The translations under genes and the position numbers were made by a program. Under the pieces are notes generated by a model that did no database searches, had not been told where the DNA came from, and saw only the letters and a list, made by a program, of their open reading frames with translations. DNA of 56,015 bases, taken from a virus (taxonomy: Duplodnaviria; Caudoviricetes). Each line of letters opens with the position of its first letter. Position 1 is the stretch's first letter. Of this stretch, positions 27,725 to 40,860 are shown piece after piece. Where the stretch lies: positions 1 to 56,015 of the IMG/VR virus record IMGVR_UViG_3300046006_001695; one strand, 5' to 3'.

Positions 27725-29605
27725 CTAGTCTAATGTTTCTGTCTCAAACTGTTGTCGATATTCAATATTAATTCGTTTTACGAACTCTTTAAACATGGAT
27801 TTACTGCGTTCTGGAGTAACTAATGCTCCATCGACAATCATATCTGCCGTTGCTTGCTTTTCTTTCAAGGTATCCCGCATGTTTTCATCGACGGTGCCTT
27901 CACACATCATATAATACACTTGGACTTGACCTTTTTGGCCGATACGATGGGTACGATCTTCTGCTTGTTCGTGTTCCGCAGGCAACCAGCCCATGTCGAT
28001 AAACACCACCGTATCAATTGCTTTTTGTAATCCGTCAATCCCCATCCCCGCAGCACGTAAACTAAACAATCCTACCTTTGCTTCCCCAGAGATTAGTTTA
28101 TCAATCGATACCTGCCGCACATTTCTGTTCATTTCACCGGTTAATAATGCTGCTTTATCTCCGTAGTGTTCGGTTAACAGTTTTAACGGTTTAATATAGC
28201 AACTGAAGACTAGTATGGACCTATCGTTGTCGATAAATTCATCAATCATTTCAATTAATCGTGGTAATTTCTTTTCAATTAAGAATCCCTGCAATTTTGG
28301 CATATGTTGAATCGACGGGCGTCCATCCATCTTCCATTTCCCAAACATTTCTTTCAACAGTTTGTTATATTCACCCTTTTCATCTTTGGTAAGTTCGACA
28401 TACAAATCATTCCGTTGTTTATTCGGTAATTCTTTAAGTACTTGGTCTTTTTTCCGTCGAATAACGAGGTCTTTTGTGCGGTCATGTAAATCTTGCAGAT
28501 TCATCGGTGCCGCACCTTTCCATCCGCCATATCGCTGCGTAAAATGGAAGAAGTTATTGAATCGTTCTTTATCTAAGAAATTCAATAACGCGAACGCTTC
28601 AATCGGACGGGACATCACAGGAGTTCCCGTCAAAAATATTGTATATTTTGTTTTAATACCCGGAAACTTTCGTCGTTCTTTCCATGACCCTAAGATAGAT
28701 TTTGCCCGAATGGTTTGTCGGTTCTTTAAATAGGTTGCTTCATCACAGACTAACAAATCAAAGTTTTGGTCACGTAACCAATGATTGTTTTTGGCAACTG
28801 CATCATAATGCGTAATATGAAATTGGTGGTCAAGGTGCCCATCATAGGTTTTACTATCCCAGATCGTTGCATCCTTTCCCGTGAACTTTTTGACCTCGCG
28901 TTGCCAGTTCACGACCACGCTAAGGGGACATACAATAAGGGTCTTCAAGTTATGTAGTTGGGCATAAGCAATGGCCTGTACGGTCTTGCCAAGACCAGGA
29001 GCGTCTGCAATTAGACACCTTCCACCTGCTCTATCGACAAACTGCACGCCGACTTTTTGATAGCCATATAAATTTAATTTTAATCCTGGGACCGTGAATG
29101 TGGTATCTTCTTGTTCACGGATTTCGTCTAAATCTTCTCGTCGTTCTTGTAATTTTCCTAATAGTTTTTCCGCAGAACTTGACAGAATTGCATTAGGAAA
29201 TGTTTTCATCATCTTGGGCAATTGTACCGAGGGAAATTCCCATCGTTTATCGTCCCCATTCCATTTTCGTCCATCAATTTCGTACTTAAATTGCGCTAGT
29301 AATGTTTTATCATACGGCATGACAACGTAGGCCGTTTTAGCATCCTTTAAATGAATGTTAATTGGGCCTGTTTGCGCTTCTTGTGTTGTTTGTGGTACGT
29401 GGGACAGTTTAGTACGGGGCAATGATAAGTCACTTATGTCCTCATCCAATAATGCCCGTCTAGATGCTTCTACCCAAACCGCCGGTAATCCTGGCGTGGA
29501 GGTGATCCATTGTAAATATTGCGGGGCAGAGCGTCTTACATTCCCTAACGTCTGCCCCGTATATTTACCCCACGTAAAAATTACTTCGTCTAACGACGGA
29601 TGCAT
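27725..29605 (-). CDS. SNF2-family (HARP/SMARCAL1-like) helicase
   Basis: LIADAPGLGKT, CDEA, LTGTP, RRKKDQVLKELP and QAEDRTHRIGQ; short N-terminal WGKY domain. Confidence 0.92.
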   Translation of the reverse strand: MHPSLDEVIFTWGKYTGQTLGNVRRSAPQYLQWITSTPGLPAVWVEASRRALLDEDISDLSLPRTKLSHVPQTTQEAQTGPINIHLKDAKTAYVVMPYDKTLLAQFKYEIDGRKWNGDDKRWEFPSVQLPKMMKTFPNAILSSSAEKLLGKLQERREDLDEIREQEDTTFTVPGLKLNLYGYQKVGVQFVDRAGGRCLIADAPGLGKTVQAIAYAQLHNLKTLIVCPLSVVVNWQREVKKFTGKDATIWDSKTYDGHLDHQFHITHYDAVAKNNHWLRDQNFDLLVCDEATYLKNRQTIRAKSILGSWKERRKFPGIKTKYTIFLTGTPVMSRPIEAFALLNFLDKERFNNFFHFTQRYGGWKGAAPMNLQDLHDRTKDLVIRRKKDQVLKELPNKQRNDLYVELTKDEKGEYNKLLKEMFGKWKMDGRPSIQHMPKLQGFLIEKKLPRLIEMIDEFIDNDRSILVFSCYIKPLKLLTEHYGDKAALLTGEMNRNVRQVSIDKLISGEAKVGLFSLRAAGMGIDGLQKAIDTVVFIDMGWLPAEHEQAEDRTHRIGQKGQVQVYYMMCEGTVDENMRDTLKEKQATADMIVDGALVTPERSKSMFKEFVKRINIEYRQQFETETLD

Positions 29606-29844
29606 TACGCGTCAGTGGTTTCCGTAAGGTCTTCTTCGGTTTTTGGACGGACATAGACCATCCGTTCCATATCCAACTTCCATCCCGCTTCTCCACTCAG
29701 TCGGAGAATCTGCATCATTTGTGCATTCGATTCTTGAATTTGCTGGAGTAATTCACCTTGATACTTTCGCAATAGCTGATTGTTTGTTTGAATCAATTGT
29801 TGTAGTGCTAGTGGCACTTCTAATGTAACTTCTTCTTGTGTCAT
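29605..29844 (-). CDS. hypothetical protein
   Basis: 79 aa helical ORF; its stop overlaps the helicase start (TAATG). Confidence 0.7.
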   Translation of the reverse strand: MTQEEVTLEVPLALQQLIQTNNQLLRKYQGELLQQIQESNAQMMQILRLSGEAGWKLDMERMVYVRPKTEEDLTETTDA

Positions 29845-29845
29845 A

Positions 29846-30694
29846 TTACTTCCCCTTTTGTTGTTTTATGTCAGCAATATACTGATCCATTTTTTTAGTA
29901 TTTTCTATAAAATATTCCGGCGTTGTAAATGGTGCCGTTTGTTTATCAACGAACTCAGGAACATTTATTTTCGTTCTATGTACCGATTCTTGCTCGCCTG
30001 TTGGTTGTACATGAAATGGACACTTTCGTTCCCCATCGGGTGGGTAATTTCCTTTGATATAATTTTTCTGCCATAGATCGCCCTTGATTTCTCCAACACT
30101 TTTTTTCTTTGCAAAATTGGATCGTTCATGATTCCAATTCCAATAATCAGCCGAAAATTGTTCATCGTCGGCAAGTGTTCTATATTCAGGCTCTACATGA
30201 TCAAACACTGTAATATCGACCGGAAATACTTGGCAAATGGGTTCATCTTTTTCAATGATGACTTCTCCAGGATGGGTGAATCGCCAATTCATGGTAAACG
30301 TAAAGGGAACCCAATACGTTTCCACAATTCCAGATAACGCAACAACATTGTGTTTTGGATAGTTTGGAGCGCCCATAACATATAACGCATATGGATATTC
30401 TGTTTTAAACAAATGTCCCGTATGCCATGTAAATGTTGCTTCTCCGAACAACGAAGTAGCAGACCCTACTCCATCAAGTGTAGTTACTTTTATATCTGAC
30501 GGGAGTATTCCGCCATTCCAACTAACAACAAATTTTGATGGAGATAGTATCTCCCAACCGTACCCGTTTGCTATACTCAGTGGTAAACATCTATATGGGT
30601 TTTTTGCATTTGCCGCATCCATCCAATCTCGTTTTAGATTTGCGGGCCTGATTTTATACGGATTGCCATGAACAGGATAGACTATTAGTTTCAT
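29846..30694 (-). CDS. conserved beta-rich protein, DUF6065-like
   Basis: RDWMD...YRCLPLSIANGYGWEI, GIVETYWVPFTFTMNWRFT; start at MKLIVY, open frame to 30769. Family name recalled, not searched. Confidence 0.7.
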   Translation of the reverse strand: MKLIVYPVHGNPYKIRPANLKRDWMDAANAKNPYRCLPLSIANGYGWEILSPSKFVVSWNGGILPSDIKVTTLDGVGSATSLFGEATFTWHTGHLFKTEYPYALYVMGAPNYPKHNVVALSGIVETYWVPFTFTMNWRFTHPGEVIIEKDEPICQVFPVDITVFDHVEPEYRTLADDEQFSADYWNWNHERSNFAKKKSVGEIKGDLWQKNYIKGNYPPDGERKCPFHVQPTGEQESVHRTKINVPEFVDKQTAPFTTPEYFIENTKKMDQYIADIKQQKGK

Positions 30695-30701
30695 AATACA
30701 A

Positions 30702-31235
30702 TTATTTGGGGAATGACCAGTGCATGAATAACTGACATAGATGTTGATTTTCTGCACAAACCAAATCATTACGCCAATGTGTCATTTGCGTGCCCAGCAT
30801 CATGCCGCCGTCGCCACGCTCAATATTAATGGGAACTTCGTTGCCGAGCTTATCAATACACCACAGTGGCCATTCTGTATCAAGGGTATTATCTAATGTG
30901 ATAGAAAGTGTATAGTTCAACCCGTCACGATCAGTGTGTCGATGTAAAGTACCGCCATTATAATAAATACGAGCAAACGAATTTGCTGGAGTCATTTTAA
31001 CTCCTAGTTCATGTTCCAATCGTGGAGTTAATTCACGAAGTGCCGCTTCAAATTCTGGGTGATTTCCTCCATACGAATTATCATAAAACGCGGCGTTGCC
31101 ACCTTCATATACAAGTTGTTCTGCATGTTTCATATCCAGTAGTAATTTAGTAAAATCATTACACTGCTGGTCCGATAATACATTCTTAATATATGAGTAT
31201 CCATGTTTATTAAAAAACTCTGCGGGTGTTTCCAT
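30702..31235 (-). CDS. 2OG-Fe(II) oxygenase
   Basis: RIY...LHRHTDR (HxD) and distal THWR (His) on a double-stranded beta-helix pattern. Confidence 0.82.
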   Translation of the reverse strand: METPAEFFNKHGYSYIKNVLSDQQCNDFTKLLLDMKHAEQLVYEGGNAAFYDNSYGGNHPEFEAALRELTPRLEHELGVKMTPANSFARIYYNGGTLHRHTDRDGLNYTLSITLDNTLDTEWPLWCIDKLGNEVPINIERGDGGMMLGTQMTHWRNDLVCAENQHLCQLFMHWSFPK

Positions 31236-31264
31236 AACTAATTTCTCCTAAATGGGTGTAAATA

Positions 31265-31293
31265 AATATACTTCAATAAATTTTAATTGTCAA
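31265..31293 (-). promoter_or_regulatory. sigma70-type promoter for the oxygenase
   Basis: TTGACA-N17-TATATT, overlapping an ATATTTAT motif. Confidence 0.7.
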
Positions 31294-32090
31294 GTGGTAG
31301 ATTCAATATGATTGTTATAATATTCCAACACCTTATTGTGAAACCGTATATATTCGTCTGTAGTATGACTTCTGAATCTATATGCGTTGTAGTTATCGTT
31401 TGGATTGTAGTTCTCCAGATACGATATTAGCTTTCCACCATCGGTTGCATGATAAAATGTTATATTATGTGGTTCATCCCAATATGCATAGTTTAATTTA
31501 TACATCAATATATATCCCACCAGAACATCTTCATGCTTTAACCACGGAAGTTCAGTCGAGGGCGCGGCCAAGTAATCTTCTTTATGGTTAACTAATTGTT
31601 CCGTGCAATCTCTCGACATATATGTGAAATATCCCGTACAAAATGGATAGGTATATTCAATTAAATTTCTTACGCCGTCATATTGTCTTTCTTTTCTTTC
31701 TAAAGAATGCAAAAATTTATGGAGCTTATTACTATCAATATATGTGGTATTACAAATTCTTACAATATAATCAAATTCTAAATTGTTAAGACACCATTCA
31801 TATGCCAAGATTAATTTTTCTGTCCGAGGGTCGATGCCATCATGTACGACATCAGTAGTCCCGCATACTAAAATATTATTTCCGTCAATGATATTCAATG
31901 ATACATTACCTTTGGCTGGTATAGTTCCAAGCGTAGATATTTCTGATCCATCGGTATTATATCCACCGTAATAATGAATTACCGTAACATCTGGGTGTGG
32001 TATTTTTGACCATGTTGTTTTTGATAGCTCATCCACTACACTATAGGACGATTCAACTGTATTTTGTACTAGTATTACTATTTTTGTCAT
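31290..32090 (-). CDS. glycosyltransferase, GT31-like (GT-A fold), divergent
   Basis: EKLILAYEW...FDYIVR...YID, G...YMSRD and EDVLVG resemble GT31 motifs; the DxD position is degenerate (CNT). Confidence 0.6.
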   Translation of the reverse strand: MTKIVILVQNTVESSYSVVDELSKTTWSKIPHPDVTVIHYYGGYNTDGSEISTLGTIPAKGNVSLNIIDGNNILVCGTTDVVHDGIDPRTEKLILAYEWCLNNLEFDYIVRICNTTYIDSNKLHKFLHSLERKERQYDGVRNLIEYTYPFCTGYFTYMSRDCTEQLVNHKEDYLAAPSTELPWLKHEDVLVGYILMYKLNYAYWDEPHNITFYHATDGGKLISYLENYNPNDNYNAYRFRSHTTDEYIRFHNKVLEYYNNHIESTT

Positions 32091-32097
32091 AACATTC

Positions 32098-33093
32098 TCA
32101 TTGAAAAGTATTTACTACATGTTTTTTTACACTTACCCACCCTTCAGAATTTATAGTACTATTTCCATATGGAAGATTTATAAAGTCGGACATTTTATTA
32201 TTGACTAAATCAAAAAAATCAAACCCTATAACATCACATACATTTTTTAATACATAAAAAAACTGACTGCGTTGAAAGTTTAGTTTTGCCAAAAAATTAT
32301 TTCGTATTACAGTTGCATCCAATTTCATATCCAATAATAAGTGTATGGATTCTTGTATAGAATAGTCATTTCTATTACATACGATTGAATTGGAATTATC
32401 TAACCACAACTCTCTACCTCCCAGCGTATTAGGTAACGATAAACCATAGACCGCTTCAGTTTTAAAATGTGGATAATAATTTTCTTTTTGTGCATCAGTT
32501 TTGATTTTTACTGATACCACGGGAATGCCGCACGATAGCATTTCTCCCACAGATAAACATGATCCTTCCGATTCTGTTGTCATCAATCCACATTTTGCCA
32601 TATTATAATATTCTGTCATTTTTTCTCCCAGAACGGGATATTCTTTCAGTCTATTCATAATTAAAATATTTAATGGGGTATATGGCACTTCAAACAAATT
32701 AATTCCTTTTGCGGGTCTTCCTGGAAATATGCAATCTATTGTTTTATTTATGTTTGGACTTATGTTATATCTTTCTTCGTTAGTAAAAATGTACTCGCTT
32801 ATCGTGTGTGAGGTTACTCCTTTTTGCATACAAAGTTTTGCTATTTCTAAATTATTAGATAATACCGTGAATTTTTCTGGATTTAACCCGTGAAAGTTTT
32901 TATCTAGAAAAAAGTTTATGAGTTCGGGCATAACCCCGTGCGTTAGTATAATATGATAGTCATCAAATGTTTTTAAGAGTTCAATATTGAGTTTATCAAA
33001 TTTACCAAATCGTACACAATCAAACATAGTTAACAATTTATTGTCTTGAACTATAGATGTTGTATATTCATCTAACATAAATTTTTTTGTCAT
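32098..33093 (-). CDS. glycosyltransferase, GT-B fold (GT4-like)
   Basis: GRPAKG and EGSCLSVGEMLSCGIPVV (Ex7E motif). Confidence 0.7.
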   Translation of the reverse strand: MTKKFMLDEYTTSIVQDNKLLTMFDCVRFGKFDKLNIELLKTFDDYHIILTHGVMPELINFFLDKNFHGLNPEKFTVLSNNLEIAKLCMQKGVTSHTISEYIFTNEERYNISPNINKTIDCIFPGRPAKGINLFEVPYTPLNILIMNRLKEYPVLGEKMTEYYNMAKCGLMTTESEGSCLSVGEMLSCGIPVVSVKIKTDAQKENYYPHFKTEAVYGLSLPNTLGGRELWLDNSNSIVCNRNDYSIQESIHLLLDMKLDATVIRNNFLAKLNFQRSQFFYVLKNVCDVIGFDFFDLVNNKMSDFINLPYGNSTINSEGWVSVKKHVVNTFQ

Positions 33094-33104
33094 TATTTAT
33101 TTTC

Positions 33105-36100
33105 CTATATATTAGACCGTGGCAAAAAGTTTCTTTCACTTATTTTTAAATTAACAAAATCAATTCCAGAAAATCCCATAAATTCTCGTATAGATCTAGT
33201 AGTTCCCTTTCCATATTTCCCTAAATCTCCGCCAAATATAAGTGAATTTAATCGTTTCATTGCATGCGCATGTTTTTGATTTCCAACACTACTTCCGTGA
33301 ACTTGCCAATGTTTTGGACACAACCCCGGATCTCCACTCCTATGCCATGTTATAATTTGTTTTGGAGTAAATATGTCATATCCATGTGTAAAAGAGCGTA
33401 TGGAAAGTGCTAATTCTTCGCCAGTATAATAATGTTCAGGATCTTGCTCAACATCTACCACCCAACTACCTTGTGTAAATACAAATCCACCGTACAATAG
33501 TGGCACGCCTACATTTTTAAATCCGGTATTTAATTCATTTTGATATCCACCATATTCTACCCATAGTTCAGAAACAATGTTCCTAATTTTTACAATATCA
33601 ATCTTATCAAGTTCTGTTTCATGTTGAAAATATACATCTACTCCCTTTTCATCATCTCTGATATACGATGGCGAGCAATATGATAGTAATGGTTTGCGTA
33701 TTCCCCTAGATTTTAAATCTTCATAGTCATTGATTATTAATTCGTCCCAATTTTGTATAAATCGAAGATGTGAATCTATTTGCAAAGAGTAGTGCTCTCC
33801 ATTGTAAGCTTGTTGTGCTATTTGCCGAGCCCAACAACCGCCCTGTCCAATTGAATAGTGATATTTTTTTATCTGTATATTATATTGAGATACTAAATCG
33901 TCAATAGCCGATTCGTTCGTGCCTTCTTTTTCATCATATTGCAGACAGATAGAAAACACTAAATTTTCTGGATACTTTGCTTTGTTAATACAGTCCAGTA
34001 TAGTATTCCGTAATTCCAAATCTAAATGGCTAGCAATTGCTACAAATATTTTTTTCGTGTCATGCATCTCAATTGGACGGTGAAGTGAGTTGGTTCTATT
34101 ACTTTCATCTTCTTTTTCTTCAGTTTGTTTAAATTCAATCGAAAGAAATTCTTCCAGGTTCTTTAAAGACCGTGTATATGAATTACCAGTATTAAATAAT
34201 ACATCATTAATAACTTCAATGGAGTGGTCTTGTTGTAAATTATTGTGATTTATTTCTCTGTATCGTGTGTTATCTGGGTTATGTGCGTTATAATTGTGCC
34301 ATATTACCGTTTCGGCCGGCAATTTTATGTCCCATCCATGTAAATATGATGAAAATGTTTGATAATCTTCCTCTCCTTTGCACAACATGGTAGTTGGAAC
34401 TTTTATCTCTTGAACCCATTCAACCGGAGCAAATATAAATCCCGCCCCTATCCATTTTGTGTCAACCACATCATAGTCATCCAGCGCGGCCAAATTTCGT
34501 GTATGGAGTCTATTATCCGTGGGGGCTTCACTAAAAAATTCTCTAATTACTAGTGGCGCATTTGTTGGATATTTTAGTTCGATGTCATCCAATTCAAATC
34601 CATTTGGATAAGTGGAAATAACAACACGGTTGTGTGGCATACTTTTGTGTTGATGTATTAGAATCCCATCCCAATGTTTTTTGAATCTGCTATGTGCATC
34701 TATTTGAAAGAAATATTGTTCGTCCGTAATAAGTTCGTTTTTTATTTTTTCACGTGCCCACACTACCCCCAACGATTCTCCGTGGGGAGTAAATATAATT
34801 TTTATATTTGGGAAGTTTTCTGCTAGTAATTTATTATAATATTCTTCGGTATCTTGTAGATGCACTCCCACCGTTATGCGACTTATATCCTGTGCATTTT
34901 TGTACAAATTATGCAAGGTTGGAATTAACTGCGTATCTCTGTAACTGGCAATCGAAACAAGTATAGTGTTTTGTTTCATATCCCACACATCTTTAAATTC
35001 TCTAGCCCAATTTGCGATGAAATTTTTTGTATCTATAAAATTACATTGCGTTTCTTGATTGTACACACTAGTATTTACATAAAAATTTTTATCGTCTATA
35101 TCATTCATGTAACCACGAAGTCTATACACATATGATGATAAGGTAGAATAGTCATTGCCTATAAATTTAATTGCTCTAGAACAAATTAGTTGTTCTATGA
35201 TAGGGATAAAATTATAGTGGGCATCTATATCTGCGGCATTGGATACATCGTCGTAAAAATACAATTTATAATGTGTAGATAAAACATCAAAAAATAATTT
35301 ATCTTGTTCGTCGGTTGCTATATACAACACTGAATTTTCTGGCACAATCTCTTTTATATTTTCATAAATTTGCTCTGCTGATATAAACAAAGATTTGTAC
35401 TGAAAATCATTTCGTCTAATGTGTATTGCATAATACTGCTGATTACCCAACCATTCTACGCCTTTCCACCCCAAATCAAAAATTTCATTTGTGTAATGGA
35501 CATGTTTAGCTATCAATTGTTTAAGTTCAACATCAAGATGTGTGTATATTGTTTGATAGAAATTACCTAGCAGTTTACCATCAAAAAATAAACATTCATC
35601 GGTTCCTATCAATTCTAACATGTTCGTTATTGGCCTATGTTTTGTAAATTTTTCATTGGGTCTACTCTTAGAAAAATTTAATACATGATTATCGGGTTCA
35701 GTTATTACTTTACTTATTGATTTGACCGCATCAAATGTATTGTCAATATTTTTAATTTGGCAAAATTCATCAAATTGCATAAATTTAATACCAATATCAT
35801 TTATATCAAAAAAATCTTCTAAGCCCATTTGGTCTTTAAGAAGATACATGTTATATTTCGGAGGTAATACCAAAGTTTTATTGGTTAGATATGAAATACA
35901 TACGGCCAATTCTAACGACATTCGTATATTATTAAATCCACCGGGCCACGGTTTCAGTATTAAATACCCATCGGCACCGTCATAATTAATAAATAAATTT
36001 TCAAAATTCCATTTTAAATGATATAAATAATCGGTGCGTTCTTGTGTAACATTCATAAGTAACAATTCCTCTATTTTATTTCTAGCACTATGCGCTGATA

Positions 36101-36878
36101 TTGGTATTGCTTGATTAAATGTATAATCTTGTTTAAAGAACAATGTAGTGTTATAAGTTTCGTCGGTTATGACATTGGGAAAATGTATAATTTGACTTAC
36201 TTCAGTGCTATTATTTTCTTTCCATGCCGTACAACATCCAAAATCTTCACGATATTGAATATGTAAATTATTTTTCTTAACTGCATAATCCAATCCCCAC
36301 ATTTCTGCTTCCCATCGTTTTGTTTTCCTGCGTATTTCTTCTGATGCAGTTTTGTAGTCCTGCATAATAGTTTTTACTGTTTTAAACTTCATACAAAACG
36401 GATACATTATTCCCTTGCCGTATTCTTCGTTGGGTAACGCCGTCCAATCTTCCATCGGTACATAGTGAATAAACCGTTGAGCAATTACTTCGTTGTCTGT
36501 CGGTTTGTATGTGATGGGTTCTAAAAATATCATATCAGGATCAAGAAATAACAGTGTATCATCATCTTGAAAGTGATTGTTGTCACACAACCATTTTATT
36601 GACATATACTTGTTAGGAATTGCTCCCCACCAATATTTTTCTCCCCGCTTTGCTTCTTCTTCTGCGTGTTCCCACTCCAATGCATAATCGGGCAAATCAA
36701 TAACTTCTACATCTGTATCGGTGTATACATCTAACGGACGATTGTTACCCATCTCGTCTGCGCATCTAAGAAATATTAATTTTCCTTGTTGTTTAACCTT
36801 TTTTCGTGACCAGTTCAATAATCTACATTGCCACGATTGATAATCACTATTGCTGGTTGGTACTATGATATAATCCAT
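33105..36878 (-). CDS. four-domain protein O-glycosyltransferase: HPAT/SGT1 (GT95/GT96)-like + O-fucosyltransferase-like + two GT60-like GlcNAc-transferase domains
   Basis: Domain 1: YQSWQCRLL, NKYMSIKWL, LDPDMIF, WEAEMWG. Domain 2: GGFNNIR, LVLPP, HIRRNDF, YIATDE, EQLICSRA.KFIG...STLS. Domains 3 and 4: VSIASYRD/VAIASHLD, QIDAHSRF...WD/QIDSHLRF...WD, GEE, WH. Open frame to 36911. Confidence 0.8.
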   Translation of the reverse strand: MDYIIVPTSNSDYQSWQCRLLNWSRKKVKQQGKLIFLRCADEMGNNRPLDVYTDTDVEVIDLPDYALEWEHAEEEAKRGEKYWWGAIPNKYMSIKWLCDNNHFQDDDTLLFLDPDMIFLEPITYKPTDNEVIAQRFIHYVPMEDWTALPNEEYGKGIMYPFCMKFKTVKTIMQDYKTASEEIRRKTKRWEAEMWGLDYAVKKNNLHIQYREDFGCCTAWKENNSTEVSQIIHFPNVITDETYNTTLFFKQDYTFNQAIPISAHSARNKIEELLLMNVTQERTDYLYHLKWNFENLFINYDGADGYLILKPWPGGFNNIRMSLELAVCISYLTNKTLVLPPKYNMYLLKDQMGLEDFFDINDIGIKFMQFDEFCQIKNIDNTFDAVKSISKVITEPDNHVLNFSKSRPNEKFTKHRPITNMLELIGTDECLFFDGKLLGNFYQTIYTHLDVELKQLIAKHVHYTNEIFDLGWKGVEWLGNQQYYAIHIRRNDFQYKSLFISAEQIYENIKEIVPENSVLYIATDEQDKLFFDVLSTHYKLYFYDDVSNAADIDAHYNFIPIIEQLICSRAIKFIGNDYSTLSSYVYRLRGYMNDIDDKNFYVNTSVYNQETQCNFIDTKNFIANWAREFKDVWDMKQNTILVSIASYRDTQLIPTLHNLYKNAQDISRITVGVHLQDTEEYYNKLLAENFPNIKIIFTPHGESLGVVWAREKIKNELITDEQYFFQIDAHSRFKKHWDGILIHQHKSMPHNRVVISTYPNGFELDDIELKYPTNAPLVIREFFSEAPTDNRLHTRNLAALDDYDVVDTKWIGAGFIFAPVEWVQEIKVPTTMLCKGEEDYQTFSSYLHGWDIKLPAETVIWHNYNAHNPDNTRYREINHNNLQQDHSIEVINDVLFNTGNSYTRSLKNLEEFLSIEFKQTEEKEDESNRTNSLHRPIEMHDTKKIFVAIASHLDLELRNTILDCINKAKYPENLVFSICLQYDEKEGTNESAIDDLVSQYNIQIKKYHYSIGQGGCWARQIAQQAYNGEHYSLQIDSHLRFIQNWDELIINDYEDLKSRGIRKPLLSYCSPSYIRDDEKGVDVYFQHETELDKIDIVKIRNIVSELWVEYGGYQNELNTGFKNVGVPLLYGGFVFTQGSWVVDVEQDPEHYYTGEELALSIRSFTHGYDIFTPKQIITWHRSGDPGLCPKHWQVHGSSVGNQKHAHAMKRLNSLIFGGDLGKYGKGTTRSIREFMGFSGIDFVNLKISERNFLPRSNI

Positions 36879-37824
36879 ATTGCCCATGTATCCAATTAAA
36901 TGTTTTTGCAATACCTTCTTCCAATGTGATAGACGGTTCCCAATTTAATAAATTTTTAACTTTTTCGTTGTGAGAATTTCTTCCACGGACGCCTAATGGA
37001 CCGTCTATATATTTACGCTGTAACTTTATATTTGCTGTATTTTCTATAATAGTAATCAACTCGTTCACCGATACCATACGGTCTGACCCAATATTAAATG
37101 CCGATTGATGGTTACTATCCATTACTTGAATGGTTCCTTCGACGGCATCATCAATATACAAGAAAGAACGGGTTTGTTCACCGTCACCCCACACTTCAAT
37201 CTCATTAGAATTGGTGTGTAACGCATGGGCCACTTTTCGACATAATGCGGCGGGAGCCTTTTCTCGTCCCCCTTGCCAGGTACCTACTGGACCATATACA
37301 TTGTGATATCGTACAATTCGGGTTTCAATTCCATAATCTTCAGAGAAGTGACGGCACATTCTTTCCATAAATAATTTTTCCCACCCATATCCATCTTCGG
37401 GGTCGGCAGGATATTCGGTCCCTTCAATTAAAGGTTCTGGGATAGTGGTGTGTTGTTTGTATGAAGGATATATACATGCCGTCGAGGCAAACAGAAATTT
37501 CTTTACTCCACTCACTTGTGCCGCCTTTAGTGTATTGGTATCGGGGATGATAGATAACATACACAGTGTTTTGTTATGTTCAATAAATCCCATACCACCC
37601 ATATCACATGCCATATGATAGACTTCATCAATGGTTTGAGTGGCATGTAGCGCAATGTCATACTCAGTTAAGTCTCCGACAATATTTTCTGCGGAGTCTA
37701 TCACTTGATACCATTTCTCTAATGGTTTTTTGTCAATTGCCCGAACCTTGTATGATTCAGATAATTTTTTGACGAGATGACCGCCGATAAATCCACCGGC
37801 GCCGGTAACCAATATTGTTTTCAT
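36847..37824 (-). CDS. GDP-mannose 3,5-epimerase-like NAD-dependent epimerase
   Basis: GAGGFIG, DMGGMGFI, ACIYP, YGWEK, GGREKAPAALCRK, WGDGEQTRSF and GVRGRNS closely match the GME subfamily. Confidence 0.88.
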   Translation of the reverse strand: MKTILVTGAGGFIGGHLVKKLSESYKVRAIDKKPLEKWYQVIDSAENIVGDLTEYDIALHATQTIDEVYHMACDMGGMGFIEHNKTLCMLSIIPDTNTLKAAQVSGVKKFLFASTACIYPSYKQHTTIPEPLIEGTEYPADPEDGYGWEKLFMERMCRHFSEDYGIETRIVRYHNVYGPVGTWQGGREKAPAALCRKVAHALHTNSNEIEVWGDGEQTRSFLYIDDAVEGTIQVMDSNHQSAFNIGSDRMVSVNELITIIENTANIKLQRKYIDGPLGVRGRNSHNEKVKNLLNWEPSITLEEGIAKTFNWIHGQYGLYHSTNQQ

Positions 37825-37888
37825 ATAAAACCTAAATTAATGTTAAATGACTTCAAGAATAAATATAATCTTGTGTTATGTAATTATA

Positions 37889-39109
37889 TTATTCAGGTGC
37901 ACCGCATACACTGCCGCCAACACATACTAATGAACAACACTCTTCATTAAAACTACATGATTCTCCAGTACCTAAGCACGACACTGGCGATGGTGTTGGT
38001 TCCGGCACCACCGGCGATGGCGTTACCGGCGACGGTGTTGGTGATACTGGTGATGGGGTTGGTACTGAGAAACATGTTCCATTTAATTCAAAGTCACACG
38101 GACATTCTGCTGGACATGTACCTAATGAGTTTCCTGAACCGTCTGTACATGCACTACCACATCCAAGCGCCGATGTTGGTGACGGCGTTACTGGCGACGG
38201 TGTTACTGGCGACGGTGTTACTGGCGACGGTGTTACTGGTGACGGTGTTACTGGTGACGGCGTTACTGGCGACGGTGTTGGTGACGGTGTTACTGGTGAC
38301 GGTGTTACTGGTGACGGCGTTACTGGCGACGGTGTTGGTGACGGCGTTACTGGCGACGGTGTTGGTGACGGCGTTACTGGCGACGGTGTTGGTGACGGCG
38401 TTACTGGCGACGGTGTTGGTGACGGAGTTGGTGCCACGCAAGCAGAACAATTAGTTGTCTCGCACGATCCAATACCACACGCAGTTGTTGTATAGTAGTT
38501 GCGTAAGAAGACTCCTCCCCCAATTGATTCGCATGAAATTGTCGTTCCTACTACACATGCTACTGGTGACGGTGTTACTGGTGACGGTGTTACTGGTGAC
38601 GGTGTTACTGGCGACGGTGTTACTGGCGACGGTGTTACTGGCGACGGTGTTACTGGTGACGGCGTTGGTGATGGTGTTGGCGTTACTGGCGATGGCGTTG
38701 GTGATGGTGTTGGCGCTACTGGCGATGGTGTTGGTGAAGGTGTTGGTGCCGGTGTTACTGGTGATGGTGTTACTGGTGATGGTGTTACTGGTGATGGTGT
38801 TGGTGAAGGCGTTGGTGAAGGCGTTGGCGCCGGTGTTGGTGACGGCGTTGGTGCTACAGGTGACGGTGTTGGCGCAGGTGCATAACACAAAAAATAATTG
38901 CGTGGTTTTGCTGCAATTAAAGTATAATTTACTTCGGTATATCCACTTGGACATGATGCCGACGGCGTTCCCGATGCACCTGTAGTCCCATATGACGCAG
39001 TTAATGCGTATGCAGGAATGTATGACGGATTATCGATGGTATTTACACGACTTGCCGTGACCGCATAAGAACTGGTTGACGGAATGCCAAATGGAAAAAA
39101 TATACTCAT
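37889..39109 (-). CDS. Pro/Ser/Thr-rich (VTPSP/TPSP) mucin- or extensin-like protein with three 6-Cys modules
   Basis: Three repeat blocks, each followed by a 6-Cys module; N-terminus is paralogous to the two upstream small genes; tightly coupled (TAATG) to its neighbour. Confidence 0.85.
37980..38880 (-). repeat. coding 15/12 bp tandem repeats (GGTGACGGTGTTACT-type)
   Basis: Blocks at about 37980-38065, 38170-38435 and 38563-38880; unit variation is mostly at third codon positions of the VTPSP frame. Confidence 0.95.
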
Positions 39110-39297
39110 TATAGGTACCCAAACCCCTGCCGTGTGACGGTGATTGCCGGCGGACCACCCGGACCCACATAGGCAATTGAAAATTCTGCAAATGATGCGG
39201 TGGCGGGTACTGGACCCAATAAAGTCGTTGCATAACTTGCATTTACTGCATACGAACTACTAAAGGGTATACCCAGCGGGAAAAAACGAATCGTCAT
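39109..39297 (-). CDS. small putative structural protein
   Basis: [19 protein letters not shown] start shared with both neighbours. Confidence 0.7.
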
Positions 39298-39306
39298 ATA
39301 AATACT

Positions 39307-39546
39307 CTACACATTACAGAATTCAACATATCCTGACCCCGAACCAGCCTGTAGCGCTACATATTCTGCAAATGATATTAAACATACACTTTTTCCCCGT
39401 GATCCTGACTGTGGAAACAATACCGTTCCCGCAGTAGATGCGGATATGACCGTTTTAATAAAACTTGCCGACACTGCACATGATGCAGTTACTGCATAGG
39501 ATGCGGTATATAATGACCCCGACCCAAATGGATATACCGACAACAT
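39307..39546 (-). CDS. small putative structural protein
   Basis: VYPFGSGSLYTASYAVTAS start, related to the two downstream genes. Confidence 0.7.
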   Translation of the reverse strand: MLSVYPFGSGSLYTASYAVTASCAVSASFIKTVISASTAGTVLFPQSGSRGKSVCLISFAEYVALQAGSGSGYVEFCNV

Positions 39547-40395
39547 TTAATTTTCTACCGAAACTACATGAATTGATGCCGTCATATCTTGTGCTCCACC
39601 AGTAGTTGCCATGCTTTGAAATATATAGTATAGTTCATTGTTTCCTTGTGGGACATTCAATGCATTTAGTACGGTTCCCATATTTTCTAAGTTTGCCCCA
39701 ATAATTTTTGGAATAAAATAGGTAGTTTCACTGCCCGTAATGATTGCGTCTACTAACAACGAGTTCATTTGCGATTCCGTTACAAACGACCTGTTTTTTT
39801 CGGTAGCATCATTAATAGAAGTCAGTGTACTATACAATCGTACTCGGGCTGCAGTTGTCGTTGCATTTAATGACGCACTCACTAATAAGTAGGTCTTTGG
39901 AATTTGAACATCCGAAATTGACCCACTAATTATTTGCCCGACACTTAAACTTCCGGTGATTTTTGGCAACGATACTCTATTGCTCGTACTTATCGTTGCA
40001 TCTTCTAATAAATATCGATTGAATGTTAAATTTGGATATTGTCCAGACGCCGTGGTGTCTACACGATAATAAGTTAGTTTTGTATTGGCAGGAGTTACCA
40101 CGCCATACATCACGGGGTCAATCGTGTATGTGCCGGCGCTCATCGTGAAATCTCCAATTAATGCTACTGAACTTGAGATGTTTGTATTACCGAATGTTCT
40201 ACTTTTTTCACCTAAATTATTAAGACTAGCTGACGTATCATATAATCGCAATCTACATGGAAAATTTGTTTGAATACTAAGTAACGCATACGCAGACCCC
40301 AGTTCTACCGAACCCGACCCGGTTTCATCGGTCTGGGTAGTAATTAAGCCTCGTGAAAGATTCGCCCCTAATCTAATATATTCTTTTAATCCCAT
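39547..40395 (-). CDS. hypothetical structural protein with internal duplication
   Basis: Two related halves (RLRLYDT...EKSRTF and RVRLYST...EKNRSF). Confidence 0.7.
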   Translation of the reverse strand: MGLKEYIRLGANLSRGLITTQTDETGSGSVELGSAYALLSIQTNFPCRLRLYDTSASLNNLGEKSRTFGNTNISSSVALIGDFTMSAGTYTIDPVMYGVVTPANTKLTYYRVDTTASGQYPNLTFNRYLLEDATISTSNRVSLPKITGSLSVGQIISGSISDVQIPKTYLLVSASLNATTTAARVRLYSTLTSINDATEKNRSFVTESQMNSLLVDAIITGSETTYFIPKIIGANLENMGTVLNALNVPQGNNELYYIFQSMATTGGAQDMTASIHVVSVEN

Positions 40396-40490: not shown

Positions 40491-40811
40491 CTACGGTTCT
40501 GGCGTAGGCTCAGGAGTAGGTTCCGGCGTTGGTTCAGGTGTTGGTTCCGGTGTTGGCTCCGGTATTGGTTCAGGAGTAGGTTCTGGTGTTGGTACTGGTA
40601 GATATTCCAATCCTAACGCATCACATATTTCGTCTTCATCCCACGTTTGCTTACTCTTGGCAGCTGCGGCAGCAATTAACGCAGTATCCGATAAATTTGC
40701 CTGTGCTTGTAATTGTCCTACATCAGTAACATCAGTGTAATAAATAACTTGTACCGCATCGGAATTGACGTTTTTACTATAATACATTAGGTACTTTAAA
40801 AATGCTGACAT
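40491..40811 (-). CDS. small protein with C-terminal (TPEP)n tail
   Basis: Globular N-terminus followed by about nine TPEP/IPEP units. Confidence 0.75.
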   Translation of the reverse strand: MSAFLKYLMYYSKNVNSDAVQVIYYTDVTDVGQLQAQANLSDTALIAAAAAKSKQTWDEDEICDALGLEYLPVPTPEPTPEPIPEPTPEPTPEPTPEPTPEPTPEP

Positions 40812-40860
40812 ATTGTGTCTCTACAAATAAAAGGTTAATACTGACTTATACAAATATTTT

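What the first reader, a model, noticed from the sequence alone, without database searches (positions are those of the whole stretch)
29846..39546. Candidate phage-encoded, eukaryote-style protein O-glycosylation system with its own mucin/extensin-like substrate
Seen: a contiguous, co-oriented run at the end of the tail-fibre array: Pro/Ser/Thr repeat protein, GME-like epimerase, four-domain GT, GT-B, GT31-like GT, 2OG-Fe(II) oxygenase, DUF6065-like protein. A UDP-sugar dehydrogenase lies elsewhere in the window. Established: GT95 (HPAT) and GT96 (SGT1) glycosylate Hyp and Ser in plant extensins; GT60 enzymes add GlcNAc to Hyp of Skp1 or to Thr of protist mucins; POFUTs modify small Cys-rich modules; prolyl hydroxylases are 2OG-Fe(II) oxygenases. 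The fusion's domain families attach the first sugar to a protein rather than to DNA or LPS, and the adjacent gene carries both acceptor types (P/S/T tracts and 6-Cys modules). Inference: the phage builds a glycosylated, mucin-like virion appendage for shielding, adhesion or host mimicry. The oxygenase could supply hydroxyproline, but it is a generic phage-type oxygenase, so that link is weak.
Basis: partly seen in the sequence, partly recalled or inferred. Interest (0 to 1): 0.9.

Follow-up and report, generated by a model that had tools for sequence, protein, structure and literature searches.

The report
Phage hydroxyproline-type protein O-glycosylation gene cluster
A lake-water tailed phage carries, next to a proline/serine/threonine-repeat fibre-like gene, a set of enzymes otherwise typical of plant, algal and protist protein O-glycosylation, and relatives link these enzymes directly to prolyl hydroxylases, which suggests that phages and some bacteria make mucin-like glycoproteins in a way so far known only from eukaryotes.

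Summary
Seven co-oriented, tightly packed genes on the minus strand (29846-39109) encode: a 406-aa Pro/Ser/Thr-repeat protein with three 6-Cys modules; a GDP-mannose 3,5-epimerase homolog; a 1257-aa fusion of HPAT-like, O-FucT and two GT60 (PF11397) domains; a GT-B transferase; a GT31-like transferase; a 2OG/Fe(II) oxygenase; and a DUF6065 protein.

The new result concerns the oxygenase. It is homologous to the C-terminal half of a tandem oxygenase whose N-terminal half is a collagen/HRGP-type prolyl 4-hydroxylase. That tandem enzyme sits directly upstream of the transferase in 59 of 71 related viral loci. In bacterial MAGs it is fused with HPAT-like and GT60 domains in one polypeptide.

Pro/Thr/Ser-rich ORFs lie near the cassette more often than expected. 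Conversely, 9 of 120 viral loci picked only by a (P[ST])7P pattern hold the enzymes, against 0 of 118 controls. No hallmark gene of DNA glycosylation was found.

Best reading (about 0.6): cytoplasmic hydroxylation and O-glycosylation of Pro-rich virion proteins. Nothing is shown biochemically. The window's own lineage lacks the canonical P4H domain, so the hydroxyproline step is weakest here. I found no paper describing this system.

The parts
37889..39109 (-). Pro/Ser/Thr-repeat protein (406 aa) with a short N-terminal region, three repeat tracts and three 6-Cys modules; proposed acceptor
   Evidence: No Pfam or PHROG family. An ortholog with the same N-terminus stands in the same position in L006/L008/L013/L025.
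36847..37824 (-). GDP-mannose 3,5-epimerase homolog (would supply GDP-L-galactose/GDP-L-gulose)
   Evidence: PF01370 4.5e-43. PDB 2c59 E 9.1e-88, 298 bits, against 108 bits for the next family.
33105..36878 (-). Four-domain glycosyltransferase, 1257 aa from ATG 36878 (the ORF is open from TTG 36911)
   Evidence: 165 proteins at E<=0.001 among 4921 candidates, all 120 listed holding PF10250 and PF11397. 74 viral loci.
35970..36878 (-). N-terminal HPAT-like (PF23452) GT-A domain with invariant D-P-D
   Evidence: E 2.3e-5, just over the cut-off. 17 of 22 family members match PF23452, best E 2.2e-13, and no other family. D113-P114-D115 invariant.
35106..35966 (-). O-FucT domain (PF10250)
   Evidence: 7.5e-25. 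A profile of the family hits only POFUT2 chains in the PDB at E<=1e-5 (4ap5 6.8e-7). Invariant H486, R488, R489, D491.
34197..34967 (-). First PF11397 (GlcNAc-transferase, GT60-type) domain, D-x-H present
   Evidence: 1.5e-30 and 4.1e-9. D727 and H729 invariant.
33153..34049 (-). Second PF11397 domain, D-x-H present
   Evidence: 3.2e-37 and 4.3e-5. The sequence shows Q-I-D-S-H. In several relatives this copy is a separate gene.
32098..33093 (-). GT-B (GT1/GT4-type) glycosyltransferase
   Evidence: PF13692 3.4e-4 and PF00534 7.7e-4, both below cut-off. Atlas features 0.96-0.97 and TM 0.63-0.70 to Glycos_transf_1 clusters. Homolog in L045 and L052.
31290..32090 (-). GT31/Fringe-like glycosyltransferase
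   Evidence: No Pfam hit. Atlas 0.97-0.98 to Galactosyl_T/Fringe clusters, TM 0.66-0.78. Homologs in 13 of 74 related loci.
30702..31235 (-). 2OG/Fe(II) oxygenase (177 aa), homolog of the C-terminal half of the tandem prolyl-hydroxylase-type enzyme of relatives
   Evidence: phrog_2954 7.1e-27. HMM of the tandem enzymes matches at E 1.5e-9, positions 302-407. Invariant R89, Y91, H100, D102, H153, R155, H172. Model pLDDT 96.2. Nearest folds are protein prolyl hydroxylases.
29846..30694 (-). DUF6065 protein (282 aa from ATG 30694), dUTPase-like fold; role unknown; travels with the oxygenase
   Evidence: PF19541 8.5e-75. Model pLDDT 89.8. dUTPases reach Z up to 10.2, with 13 chains at Z>=8. Co-occurs with the short oxygenase in L005-L009, L013, L025, L045 and beside an O-FucT+oxygenase fusion in L233.
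40491..40811 (-). Small ORF (106 aa) ending in a (P-E-P-T)n tract; possible second acceptor; not established as a gene
   Evidence: Only a sub-threshold Trypan_PARP match.

Best explanation
The cluster is a phage-encoded system for post-translational modification of Pro-rich virion proteins. It works in the host cytoplasm.

Proposed steps:
1. The 2OG/Fe(II) oxygenase hydroxylates residues, most likely prolines, in the [T/S/A/V]-P repeats of the adjacent 406-aa protein and possibly of other fibre proteins.
2. The four-domain transferase attaches first sugars. The HPAT-like domain and the two GT60-type domains act on hydroxyproline and/or Thr/Ser. The O-FucT domain adds an L-sugar from a GDP donor.
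3. The GDP-mannose 3,5-epimerase homolog makes that donor (GDP-L-galactose or GDP-L-gulose) from host GDP-mannose.
4. The GT-B and GT31-like enzymes extend the chains.

The product would be a mucin/arabinogalactan-protein-like, heavily O-glycosylated extended appendage on the virion.

Shown here: gene content, domain families, catalytic motifs, conservation, gene fusions and neighbourhood statistics.
Inferred: every chemical step, the acceptor, the sugars and the virion location.
For: (a) Domain families. The only families matched by the fusion are HPAT, O-FucT and PF11397. 17 of 22 relatives' N-domains hit HPAT and nothing else. The profile hits only POFUT2 in the PDB. Relatives add a PLOD GT domain, 5.6e-21. 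Metal and catalytic motifs are conserved.

(b) Link to prolyl hydroxylation.
- In 59 of 71 related viral loci with enough upstream DNA, a ~410-437-aa tandem oxygenase ends within 150 bp of the transferase start. 70 of 74 loci hold this or the short oxygenase. By sequence cluster, 23 of 29 hold the tandem form and 3 the short form only.
- The N-half is PF13640 in 7 of 7 tested (4e-13 to 8e-20). As a profile it hits only prolyl 4-hydroxylases in the PDB: B. anthracis 1.8e-39, Chlamydomonas 5.9e-32, human C-P4H 1.1e-31, PBCV-1 3.9e-30.
- The window's oxygenase is the homolog of the C-half.
- Its model is nearest to protein prolyl hydroxylases: P. putida P4H Z 17.9, Dictyostelium PhyA 16.9, Trichoplax PHD 16.9, PBCV-1 vCPH 16.6, PHD2 16.5 (Foldseek E 1.8e-10).
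- Fusions: one 1205-aa protein in L236 holds HPAT (1.4e-7), PF11397 (6.8e-50) and PF13640 (1.4e-17). The same layout appears by BLAST in L229, L230, L237 and L240.

(c) Acceptors.
- P/S/T/A-rich ORFs, always co-oriented, lie in 25 of 74 loci, and in 12 of 20 loci with >=8 kb on both sides, at 0.5-4 kb from the transferase.
- By sequence cluster this is 7 of 12, against 11-17% of random 22-kb windows in two near-complete relatives (binomial p 0.0015).
- Reverse test: 9 of 120 viral loci found only by a (P[ST])7P-coding pattern hold relatives of the oxygenase or transferase, against 0 of 118 loci found by a (G[ST])7G pattern (Fisher p 0.0033). None of the nine is a near-copy of the first set.
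- In L164 and L178 the order is: P/T-rich protein with a tail-fibre-type domain, then P4H, then (in L178) GT60.
- Bacterial loci L225 and L228 have Pro/Thr-repeat proteins with twin-arginine-like N-termini beside the cassette, with no phage genes seen among the ORFs scanned in L225.

(d) Setting. The cluster stands among tail-fibre-like, baseplate and sheath genes, and its genes are tightly spaced or overlapping.

(e) Donor. The GME homolog sits beside an O-FucT domain. The cultured cyanophage S-SCSM1 has oxygenase / O-FucT / oxygenase together with GMD, GDP-fucose synthase and GME, as annotated.
Against: - No biochemical or proteomic evidence of any kind exists.
- The window has no PF13640 domain. 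Neither does G001, an 89%-complete relative of the same lineage. Here the hydroxyproline step rests on a divergent oxygenase with no significant sequence match to any solved protein. Its fold neighbours include non-prolyl enzymes within about 1-2 Z units: 6n1f 17.4, HalB 16.9, PiuC 16.1, SnoK 15.7.
- The HPAT match of the window's own protein is only just over the cut-off.
- PF10250 also holds enzymes that do not act on proteins (my knowledge of the family, not tested here).
- The 6-Cys modules match no EGF/TSR or any other Pfam family.
- Adjacency to the repeat gene is not universal. It is absent from 8 of 20 well-flanked loci. In the 100%-complete G002 the two P/S/T/A-rich ORFs lie at 153 and 167-172 kb, while the cassette lies at 38-42 kb.
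- Most Pro/Thr-repeat loci (111 of 120) show no such enzyme within the few kb held.
- The background estimate comes from only two genomes.
- In S-SCSM1 the module lies among tRNA and nucleotide-metabolism genes, not among structural genes.
- The PST protein has not been shown to be a virion protein.
Confidence: 0.6

Rival explanations
1. The enzymes do hydroxylate and glycosylate proteins, but the acceptor is not the neighbouring repeat protein. It could be another virion protein (capsid, sheath, fibres) or a host protein such as a translation factor, modified as part of host takeover.
For: The top structural neighbour of the oxygenase is the P. putida hydroxylase solved with EF-Tu. The eukaryotic GT60/PhyA pair modifies a single cytoplasmic protein (established knowledge). 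In G002 and in 8 of 20 well-flanked loci no repeat gene is adjacent. In S-SCSM1 the module is not in the structural region.
Against: Repeat genes are enriched next to the cassette, and the cassette is enriched next to repeat genes. The N-half of the relatives' enzyme groups by sequence with collagen/HRGP-type P4Hs that act on Pro-rich repeats, not with PHD-type enzymes. Five to seven transferase domains, plus carbamoyl- and methyltransferases in relatives, suggest a bulky glycan on many sites rather than a regulatory mark.
Confidence: 0.17
2. The cluster is an auxiliary glycan-metabolism module. It remodels host lipopolysaccharide, capsule or another surface polysaccharide during infection, and the repeat protein is simply a fibre protein with flexible Pro/Thr linkers.
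For: Phages commonly carry nucleotide-sugar and GT genes. The GT-B enzyme and the GME homolog would fit polysaccharide synthesis. Pro/Thr linkers are common in phage loci without these enzymes (111 of 120). Bacterial relatives stand beside GT25-, GT2-, GT10-type and MBOAT genes.
Against: It does not explain the near-constant pairing, and the fusion, with a prolyl 4-hydroxylase. None of the four domains of the fusion matches an LPS or capsule family. No flippase, polymerase or lipid-carrier transferase was seen among the cluster's ORFs.
Confidence: 0.12
3. The oxygenase and transferases hypermodify the phage DNA with glycans, as in the phage 5mC-dioxygenase/glycosyltransferase pathways.
For: Phage gene clusters that pair a 2OG dioxygenase with GT-A/GT-B transferases are known to glycosylate DNA (preprint 10.1101/2023.12.21.572611, passages read). 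A helicase gene follows the cluster. One relative's P4H has a faint Tet_JBP hit (0.005, below cut-off).
Against: No C5-methyltransferase (PF00145) or thymidylate-synthase-type gene (PF00303) was found in the window or in four related records, one of them 100% complete. A Tet_JBP search also found nothing, but its control rang nowhere, so it is uninformative. The oxygenases group with protein prolyl hydroxylases. The transferase families are protein-directed ones.
Confidence: 0.04

Closest known systems
Plant and green-algal hydroxyproline-rich glycoprotein pathway (P4H, then HPAT/GT95, GT77 arabinosyltransferases, GT31 Hyp-galactosyltransferases; Ser-galactosylation)
   Same: The enzyme families are the same: a collagen/HRGP-type P4H in relatives (Chlamydomonas P4H 5.9e-32), an HPAT-family domain, a GT31-like enzyme, and a GT77-type PF03407 gene in relative L030. 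The acceptor-like protein is made of [A/S/T/V]-Pro repeats.
   Different: The phage enzymes are soluble and have no N-terminal membrane anchor (sequence), so they would act in a bacterial cytoplasm, not in the Golgi. The domains are fused in one polypeptide together with O-FucT and GT60 domains. No contiguous prolines occur, so the protein is not extensin-like. The donor sugars are unknown. The family assignments of the plant enzymes to GT95/GT77/GT31 are from my knowledge, not from a call.
Cytoplasmic Skp1 hydroxyproline glycosylation of Dictyostelium/Toxoplasma (PhyA prolyl hydroxylase, then Gnt1 of GT60, then further multi-domain transferases)
   Same: It is a cytoplasmic pathway of soluble enzymes. 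A prolyl hydroxylase is coupled to a PF11397/GT60 transferase. Dictyostelium PhyA is among the nearest folds of the window's oxygenase (Z 16.9). Multi-domain transferases occur in both. P4H+GT60 fusions in bacterial MAGs show the same functional pairing.
   Different: Skp1 is modified at one proline (established knowledge). Here the likely acceptors are long repeats. The relatives' P4H half groups by sequence with collagen-type rather than PHD-type enzymes. HPAT, O-FucT and PLOD-GT domains are added.
Giant-virus protein modification: chlorovirus PBCV-1 prolyl 4-hydroxylase with virus-encoded glycosyltransferases; mimivirus collagen-like fibre hydroxylysine glycosylation
   Same: These are virus-encoded P4H and GTs acting on virus-encoded Pro-rich or collagen-like proteins. 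PBCV-1 vCPH is a sequence relative of the relatives' P4H half (3.9e-30) and a fold neighbour of the window's oxygenase (Z 16.6). A PLOD-type GT domain occurs in close relatives.
   Different: Those are eukaryotic viruses. To my knowledge hydroxyproline O-glycosylation has not been shown for them, and the PBCV-1 capsid glycans are N-linked (recalled). Here the host is a bacterium and the P4H is genetically coupled to Hyp-type transferases.
Mycobacteriophage virion O-glycosylation by phage-encoded glycosyltransferases
   Same: Tailed phages that glycosylate their own virion proteins with their own transferases, whose genes lie near structural genes (seen only in search listings and abstracts; details recalled).
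   Different: That system has no hydroxylase. Its transferase families and acceptor sequences are different (recalled). Homology to that system was not tested here.
Phage DNA glycan hypermodification clusters (C5-MT + 5mC dioxygenase or ThyA-type enzyme + GT-A/GT-B)
   Same: A 2OG dioxygenase next to several glycosyltransferases in a phage genome.
   Different: The partner genes are absent. The oxygenase and transferase families differ.

Membership tests
HPAT family (Pfam PF23452; CAZy GT95 by my knowledge) | Sequence match to the family model above the curated cut-off | tested here: met
   Window domain: E 2.3e-5, 24.4 bits against a cut-off of 23.9, residues 4-233 on model positions 3-241 of 307. 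This is marginal on its own. 17 of 22 homologous N-domains match, best E 2.2e-13, and no other family is matched.
HPAT family (Pfam PF23452; CAZy GT95 by my knowledge) | GT-A type metal-binding D-x-D motif conserved | tested here: met
   D113-P114-D115 are invariant in 19 full-length and 22 N-domain sequences. That this motif is the catalytic one in HPAT is inferred.
HPAT family (Pfam PF23452; CAZy GT95 by my knowledge) | Transfers L-arabinofuranose to peptidyl hydroxyproline | not testable with these tools
   No solved HPAT structure was found by the profile. Activity needs an assay.
PF11397 GlcNAc-transferase family (GT60; Skp1 Hyp- and protist Thr-GlcNAc transferases by my knowledge) | Sequence match above cut-off | tested here: met
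   E 1.2e-78, 265 bits against a cut-off of 21, two full copies.
PF11397 GlcNAc-transferase family (GT60; Skp1 Hyp- and protist Thr-GlcNAc transferases by my knowledge) | D-x-H metal-binding motif | tested here: met
   D727 and H729 are invariant in copy 1. Copy 2 reads Q-I-D-S-H.
PF11397 GlcNAc-transferase family (GT60; Skp1 Hyp- and protist Thr-GlcNAc transferases by my knowledge) | Works downstream of a prolyl 4-hydroxylase | tested here: met
   This is genetic evidence only. P4H is directly upstream in 59 of 71 loci. It is fused in one polypeptide in L236 and by BLAST in L229, L230, L237 and L240. In the window itself only the short oxygenase is present.
Protein O-fucosyltransferase family (PF10250; POFUT1/2) | Sequence match above cut-off and nearest solved relatives | tested here: met
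   E 7.5e-25, 88.6 bits against a cut-off of 31.5. The profile hits POFUT2 chains 4ap5, 4ap6, 5foe and 8ay1 at 6.8e-7 to 3.2e-6, and no other glycosyltransferase.
Protein O-fucosyltransferase family (PF10250; POFUT1/2) | Acceptor is a folded Cys-rich EGF or TSR module | tested here: inconclusive
   The neighbouring protein has three 6-Cys modules, but they match no Pfam family. The family also contains non-protein-directed plant enzymes (my knowledge).
Collagen/HRGP-type prolyl 4-hydroxylase (PF13640) | Sequence match to PF13640 in the window | tested here: not met
   No match in the window at E<=0.1, nor in G001 and G003 of the same lineage. It is met in relatives: 7 of 7 at 4e-13 to 8e-20, and only P4Hs in the PDB. 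The window's oxygenase is therefore not filed as a member.
2OG/Fe(II) oxygenase superfamily, protein prolyl-hydroxylase-like fold (for the window's 177-aa oxygenase) | HxD...H iron triad and a 2OG-binding basic residue; double-stranded beta-helix fold | tested here: met
   H100, D102, H153, R155 (and R89, Y91) are invariant in 20 sequences. Model pLDDT 96.2. 168 chains reach Z>=8, all those listed being 2OG oxygenases.
2OG/Fe(II) oxygenase superfamily, protein prolyl-hydroxylase-like fold (for the window's 177-aa oxygenase) | Specifically a peptidyl-prolyl hydroxylase | tested here: inconclusive
   Five of the seven best VIA rows are protein prolyl hydroxylases (Z 16.5-17.9), but other enzymes are tied within 1-2 Z. 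There is no significant sequence hit in the PDB.
GDP-mannose 3,5-epimerase | Close sequence similarity over the full length to characterised GME, well above other SDR epimerases | tested here: met
   2c59: E 9.1e-88, residues 4-315 on 32-341. The next family, UDP-glucose 4-epimerase, gives 4.5e-30. No NCBIfam equivalog passes its cut-off.
GT31 (Galactosyl_T / Fringe) | Sequence or structure match to the family | tested here: inconclusive
   No Pfam match even at E 10. Atlas feature scores of 0.97-0.98 go to viral clusters in which 15-44% (one cluster 74% Fringe) of members carry the family. Structure rows with Fringe/Galactosyl_T meet the Atlas bar at TM 0.68-0.74.
Phage DNA glycan hypermodification pathway | Neighbouring C5-cytosine methyltransferase plus 5mC dioxygenase, or a thymidylate-synthase-type hydroxymethylase | tested here: not met
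   PF00145 and PF00303 are absent from G000, G001, G002 (100% complete), G004 and G005, with working controls. PF12851 is also absent, but its control rang nowhere.

The most novel reading that the evidence does not exclude
Tailed phages and some bacteria possess a so far undescribed, cytoplasmic hydroxyproline-centred protein O-glycosylation pathway. It would be built from a collagen/HRGP-type prolyl 4-hydroxylase genetically coupled or fused to HPAT-, GT60-, POFUT- and PLOD-type transferase domains. The pathway would turn Pro/Thr/Ser-repeat proteins into mucin- or arabinogalactan-protein-like glycoproteins: virion fibres in phages, and twin-arginine-exported surface proteins in bacteria. This would make the hallmark 'eukaryotic' Hyp-glycosylation machineries (plant HRGP, protist Skp1) members of a wider family with prokaryotic and viral branches. 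It would also explain why prolyl 4-hydroxylase is an abundant 'cryptic' viral auxiliary gene.
Probability: 0.45. Interest if true: 0.9.

Novelty: new variant of a known kind. Interest (0 to 1): 0.82.

Why it matters
Hydroxyproline O-glycosylation is regarded as a eukaryotic trait (plants, green algae, some protists), and virion glycosylation in tailed phages is known from only a few cases.

A phage and bacterial version would do four things:
1. It would give a function to viral prolyl 4-hydroxylase genes. A survey of Baltic Sea viruses lists P4HA among abundant auxiliary genes and states that how viruses use it 'remains cryptic' (PMC9301287, passage read).
2. It would predict a new class of glycoprotein fibres on aquatic phages. 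These could affect adsorption, stickiness to mucus or particles, protease resistance and recognition.
3. It would provide soluble, bacterial-cytoplasm-compatible enzymes for making Hyp-glycosylated or mucin-like polypeptides in E. coli.
4. It would bear on the origin of the plant HRGP and protist Skp1 pathways.

The question is directly testable, because a cultured cyanophage (S-SCSM1 on Synechococcus WH 7803) carries a related module.

Tried and rejected
- Megablast of the whole region against 50,697 phage records: no match.
- Single-sequence pattern search with the N-domain in viral contigs: nothing. The alignment-based search was needed.
- NCBIfam gave no equivalog for any of the six enzymes.
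- I considered that DUF6065 might be the missing hydroxylase. Rejected: its model has a dUTPase/dCTP-deaminase-like fold (Z up to 10.2, rows below Z 4 unrelated), not a 2OG-oxygenase fold.
- Promoter and terminator scan of 29500-40900: counts no different from shuffles (55 against 48.1 +/- 7.6; 5 against 7.9 +/- 2.6), so it says nothing about transcription units.
- Profile of the HPAT-like domain against PDB sequences: only a chance-level helicase hit.
- Profile of the short oxygenase against PDB sequences: nothing significant.
- Simple density of P/S/T-rich ORFs near the cassette, compared with the rest of the same genomes, gives only a modest enrichment. It had to be judged by sequence cluster.
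- Sequencing runs: no RNA holder listed.
- Contigs of four lake-water runs cover the enzyme genes (one run with no differences over 29600-37398) but break inside the PST repeats. The alternative joints there cannot be told from assembly artefacts.
- PMC13326640 held none of my six search terms.
- Literature searches that found no description of a phage P4H plus HPAT/GT60 system.
- Not run: a complex prediction (enzyme with substrate, judged not worth a job) and the large representative-protein search.
Supplementary files of papers were not consulted.

Full report
WHAT IS THERE

The window is a 56-kb fragment of a virus record, estimated 26% complete. It comes from a myovirus: tail sheath at 53598-55934 and baseplate hub at 26913-27686. 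The nearest isolate by sheath protein is Microcystis phage Mel-JY01, at 46% identity. The stretch recurs in lake-water metagenomes: 6 runs from 6 studies hold at least half of its sampled words.

Between a tail-fibre-like gene set (41610-42350 and 40861-41640) and a helicase (27725-29605) lie seven minus-strand genes. Their spacings are 64, -32, 11, 7, 54 and 7 bp.

The first gene encodes a 406-aa protein that is 26% Pro, 16.5% Ser and 16% Thr. It has three repeat tracts and 2+6+6+6 cysteines. It has no Pro-Pro and 97 [STAV]-Pro dipeptides, and it matches no Pfam or PHROG family.

DOMAIN ASSIGNMENTS

- The epimerase is a clear GDP-mannose 3,5-epimerase homolog: 2c59, E 9.1e-88, against 4.5e-30 for the next family.
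- The large protein most likely starts at ATG 36878 and overlaps the epimerase's end. It has four domains:
  - an N-terminal domain that matches only the HPAT family. The window's own match is marginal (24.4 bits against a cut-off of 23.9), but 17 of 22 homologs match, best E 2.2e-13, and no other family is matched. Its D-P-D motif is invariant.
  - an O-FucT domain (7.5e-25), whose only solved relatives by profile are POFUT2 chains.
  - two PF11397 domains (1.2e-78 in all), each with a D-x-H motif.
- The next two genes are a GT-B transferase and a GT31/Fringe-like transferase. Both are supported mainly by the Atlas and not by Pfam.
- DUF6065 has a dUTPase-like fold. Its role is open.

THE OXYGENASE

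The 177-aa protein matches no Pfam family above cut-off, but it keeps the H-x-D...H triad and basic residues that are invariant across 20 homologs. Its model is confident, with pLDDT 96.2.

Its nearest solved folds are protein prolyl hydroxylases: P. putida P4H at Z 17.9, Dictyostelium PhyA 16.9, Trichoplax PHD 16.9, PBCV-1 vCPH 16.6 and PHD2 16.5. Other 2OG enzymes follow within 1-2 Z, so the fold alone does not fix the substrate.

The comparative evidence is more telling. The fusion transferase has a large family. 165 proteins scored E<=0.001 among 4921 candidates. All 120 listed carry PF10250 and PF11397; 19 of them also carry a precomputed HPAT hit and 11 carry PF25342. I found 74 viral loci with relatives.

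- In 59 of the 71 loci with enough upstream DNA, the gene that ends within 150 bp of the transferase start is a ~410-437-aa tandem oxygenase.
- 70 of 74 loci hold this enzyme or the short form.
- The exceptions are L035 (cut at the gene start), L048, L054 and L076.

The N-half of the tandem enzyme is PF13640 in 7 of 7 tested. As a profile it hits nine PDB sequences, all prolyl 4-hydroxylases: B. anthracis, Chlamydomonas, human collagen P4H, PBCV-1 and the human transmembrane P4H. The C-half is the homolog of the window's oxygenase.

The window's lineage (L005-L009, L013, L025, L045) has the epimerase in the upstream position instead. It keeps only the short oxygenase, always together with DUF6065. 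It has no PF13640 domain, either in the window or in the 89%-complete relative G001.

FUSIONS AND BACTERIAL VERSIONS

In the species-representative genome collection, 25 loci encode relatives. In an Arenicella MAG a single 1205-aa protein carries HPAT (1.4e-7), PF11397 (6.8e-50) and PF13640 (1.4e-17). BLAST shows the same P4H-with-transferase layout in four further MAG loci. In a Planctomycetota MAG an O-FucT domain is fused to the short-oxygenase type and stands beside a DUF6065 gene.

A 4.3-Mb MAG chromosome (L225) has this order: Pro/Thr-repeat protein, GT25-like gene, tandem P4H, HPAT/O-FucT/GT60 fusion, a 1319-aa multi-GT protein, MBOAT, and a further GT60. No phage family appeared among the eight ORFs scanned. 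Its repeat protein, and two in a Paraglaciecola MAG, begin with twin-arginine-like motifs (reading these as Tat signals is my inference).

Close relatives of the window's protein (71% identity) add a PLOD-type GT domain. Others are fused to, or followed by, carbamoyltransferases, methyltransferases, a PF03407 gene and a GT17 gene.

CO-OCCURRENCE WITH REPEAT PROTEINS

Forward test. P/S/T/A-rich ORFs (at least 80% P+S+T+A and at least 20% Pro in 60 residues) occur in 25 of 74 loci. All are on the transferase's strand. They occur in 12 of the 20 loci with >=8 kb on both sides, at 0.5-4 kb from the transferase. Counting one per 80%-identity cluster gives 7 of 12.

In two near-complete relatives, 17% and 11% of random 22-kb windows contain such an ORF. 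The binomial p against 0.17 is 0.0015. This is a rough test with a small background.

There are counter-examples. 8 of the 20 well-flanked loci have none. In the complete genome G002 the two such ORFs are far from the cassette.

These proteins alternate Pro/Thr/Ser/Ala tracts with small Cys-containing modules. In several cases they carry fibre-type or lectin-like domains.

Reverse test. Nine of them (1.09 Mb in all) encode relatives of the oxygenase or transferase. None of 118 loci (1.07 Mb) returned by a (G[ST])7G pattern does (Fisher p 0.0033). The nine are not near-copies of the first set or of the window. Three of them share short similar segments.

In L164 and L178 a P/T-rich protein with the same tail-fibre-type domain as window 41610-42350 is followed directly by a stand-alone P4H (8.2e-17; 4.1e-20). 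In L178 a GT60 gene (3.3e-35) follows as well. Podovirus-like contigs L070-L078 show the order: large structural protein, small P/V/A/S-rich protein, P4H, O-FucT-like gene, carbamoyltransferase.

RIVALS

DNA glycan hypermodification is a real phage precedent for 'dioxygenase plus transferases' (preprint 10.1101/2023.12.21.572611, passages read). Its partner genes are absent from the window and from four related records, one of them complete (the Tet_JBP search had no working control). The enzyme families here also differ.

Host polysaccharide remodelling does not explain the pairing and fusion with a prolyl hydroxylase.

A protein acceptor other than the neighbouring repeat protein, including a host protein, cannot be excluded. 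It is the strongest rival.

MECHANISM, WITH STATUS

- Shown: gene order, families, motifs, fusions, neighbourhood statistics.
- Inferred: the oxygenase hydroxylates prolines of [T/S/A/V]-P repeats in the cytoplasm.
- Inferred: the HPAT-like and GT60 domains start chains on Hyp and/or Thr/Ser.
- Inferred: the O-FucT domain uses a GDP-L-sugar supplied by the GME homolog. GDP-L-galactose is the 6-hydroxy analogue of GDP-L-fucose (established chemistry); the pairing of donor and domain is my inference.
- Inferred: the GT-B and GT31-like enzymes extend the chains, and the product is assembled into the virion as an extended, glycan-coated fibre or decoration.

The hydroxyproline step is best supported for relatives with the tandem P4H. 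It is less well supported for this window.

COMPARISON WITH WHAT IS KNOWN, AND NOVELTY

The closest systems are:
- the plant/algal HRGP pathway and the cytoplasmic Skp1 pathway of protists (same families, different setting);
- chlorovirus and mimivirus protein modification (eukaryotic viruses);
- mycobacteriophage virion glycosylation (no hydroxylase).

Seven full-text searches found no paper describing a phage or bacterial P4H coupled to HPAT/GT60-type transferases. One survey explicitly calls the role of viral P4H cryptic (PMC9301287, passage read). The library lacks many subscription-journal papers, and I did not see supplements, so prior description cannot be fully excluded.

The cultured cyanophage S-SCSM1 carries an annotated oxygenase / O-FucT / oxygenase module with GDP-sugar genes. 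It offers a test system.

LIMITS

- All evidence is computational.
- The background for the neighbourhood test is two genomes.
- ORFs were called mechanically.
- The repeat array of the PST gene may be mis-assembled.

Noticed in passing
window 29846-30694: DUF6065 (320 relatives at E<=0.001) models with high confidence as a dUTPase/dCTP-deaminase-like barrel followed by helices (Z up to 10.2). It travels with the short oxygenase in phages. It also stands beside an O-FucT+oxygenase fusion in a Planctomycetota MAG (L233). A nucleotide- or UDP-binding role in the pathway is conceivable but untested.
   Followed up: partly
window 14623-15483: The UDP-glucose/GDP-mannose dehydrogenase-family ORF is only 286 aa. 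It has the N-terminal and central domains but no C-terminal PF03720 domain anywhere in the window. It lies next to a DNA-polymerase-A-like ORF, 15 kb from the cluster, so its link to the cluster is doubtful.
   Followed up: partly
window 40491-40811: A 106-aa minus-strand ORF ends in a (P-E-P-T)n tract. One lake metagenome contig has a 6-base insertion in this repeat, at 40583. It could be a second small Pro/Thr-rich acceptor or not a gene at all.
   Followed up: no
window 38203-38880: Short-read contigs of four lake-water runs stop at the PST repeats. They show alternative joints, for example 38434 to 38672 in three runs. This is either repeat-number variation in the population or assembly ambiguity, and the window's repeat count should not be taken as exact.
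   Followed up: partly
L225 4377-5552; L228 5276-6271: Bacterial MAG loci with the same P4H/transferase cassette encode adjacent Pro/Thr-repeat proteins whose N-termini carry twin-arginine-like motifs followed by a hydrophobic stretch. This would fit export of proteins already modified in the cytoplasm.
   Followed up: partly
P0003 residues 1295-1496 (relative, 71% identical): Some close relatives carry a fifth domain, PF25342 'PLOD GT domain' (5.6e-21; 11 of the 120 listed proteins). This is the transferase type that glycosylates hydroxylysine in collagen. It raises the question whether the second oxygenase domain hydroxylates a residue other than proline.
   Followed up: no
L366 (Synechococcus phage S-SCSM1, record 100204-111294): A cultured cyanomyovirus has four annotated 2OG-Fe(II) oxygenases, an O-FucT gene flanked by two of them, a carbamoyltransferase, GMD, GDP-fucose synthase and GME. 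These are interspersed with tRNA genes, including tRNA-Pro directly before the oxygenase/O-FucT pair.
   Followed up: no
L053, L054, L064, L068, L076: Five of the 74 related viral contigs are labelled as giant-virus MAGs in the collection. Whether these are true giant viruses or mis-binned phages was not examined. Two of them (L054, L076) lack the oxygenase.
   Followed up: no
window 39110-39546: A 437-bp non-coding gap precedes the PST gene. It is the only long gap in the cluster. The simple promoter scan found nothing distinctive there.
   Followed up: partly
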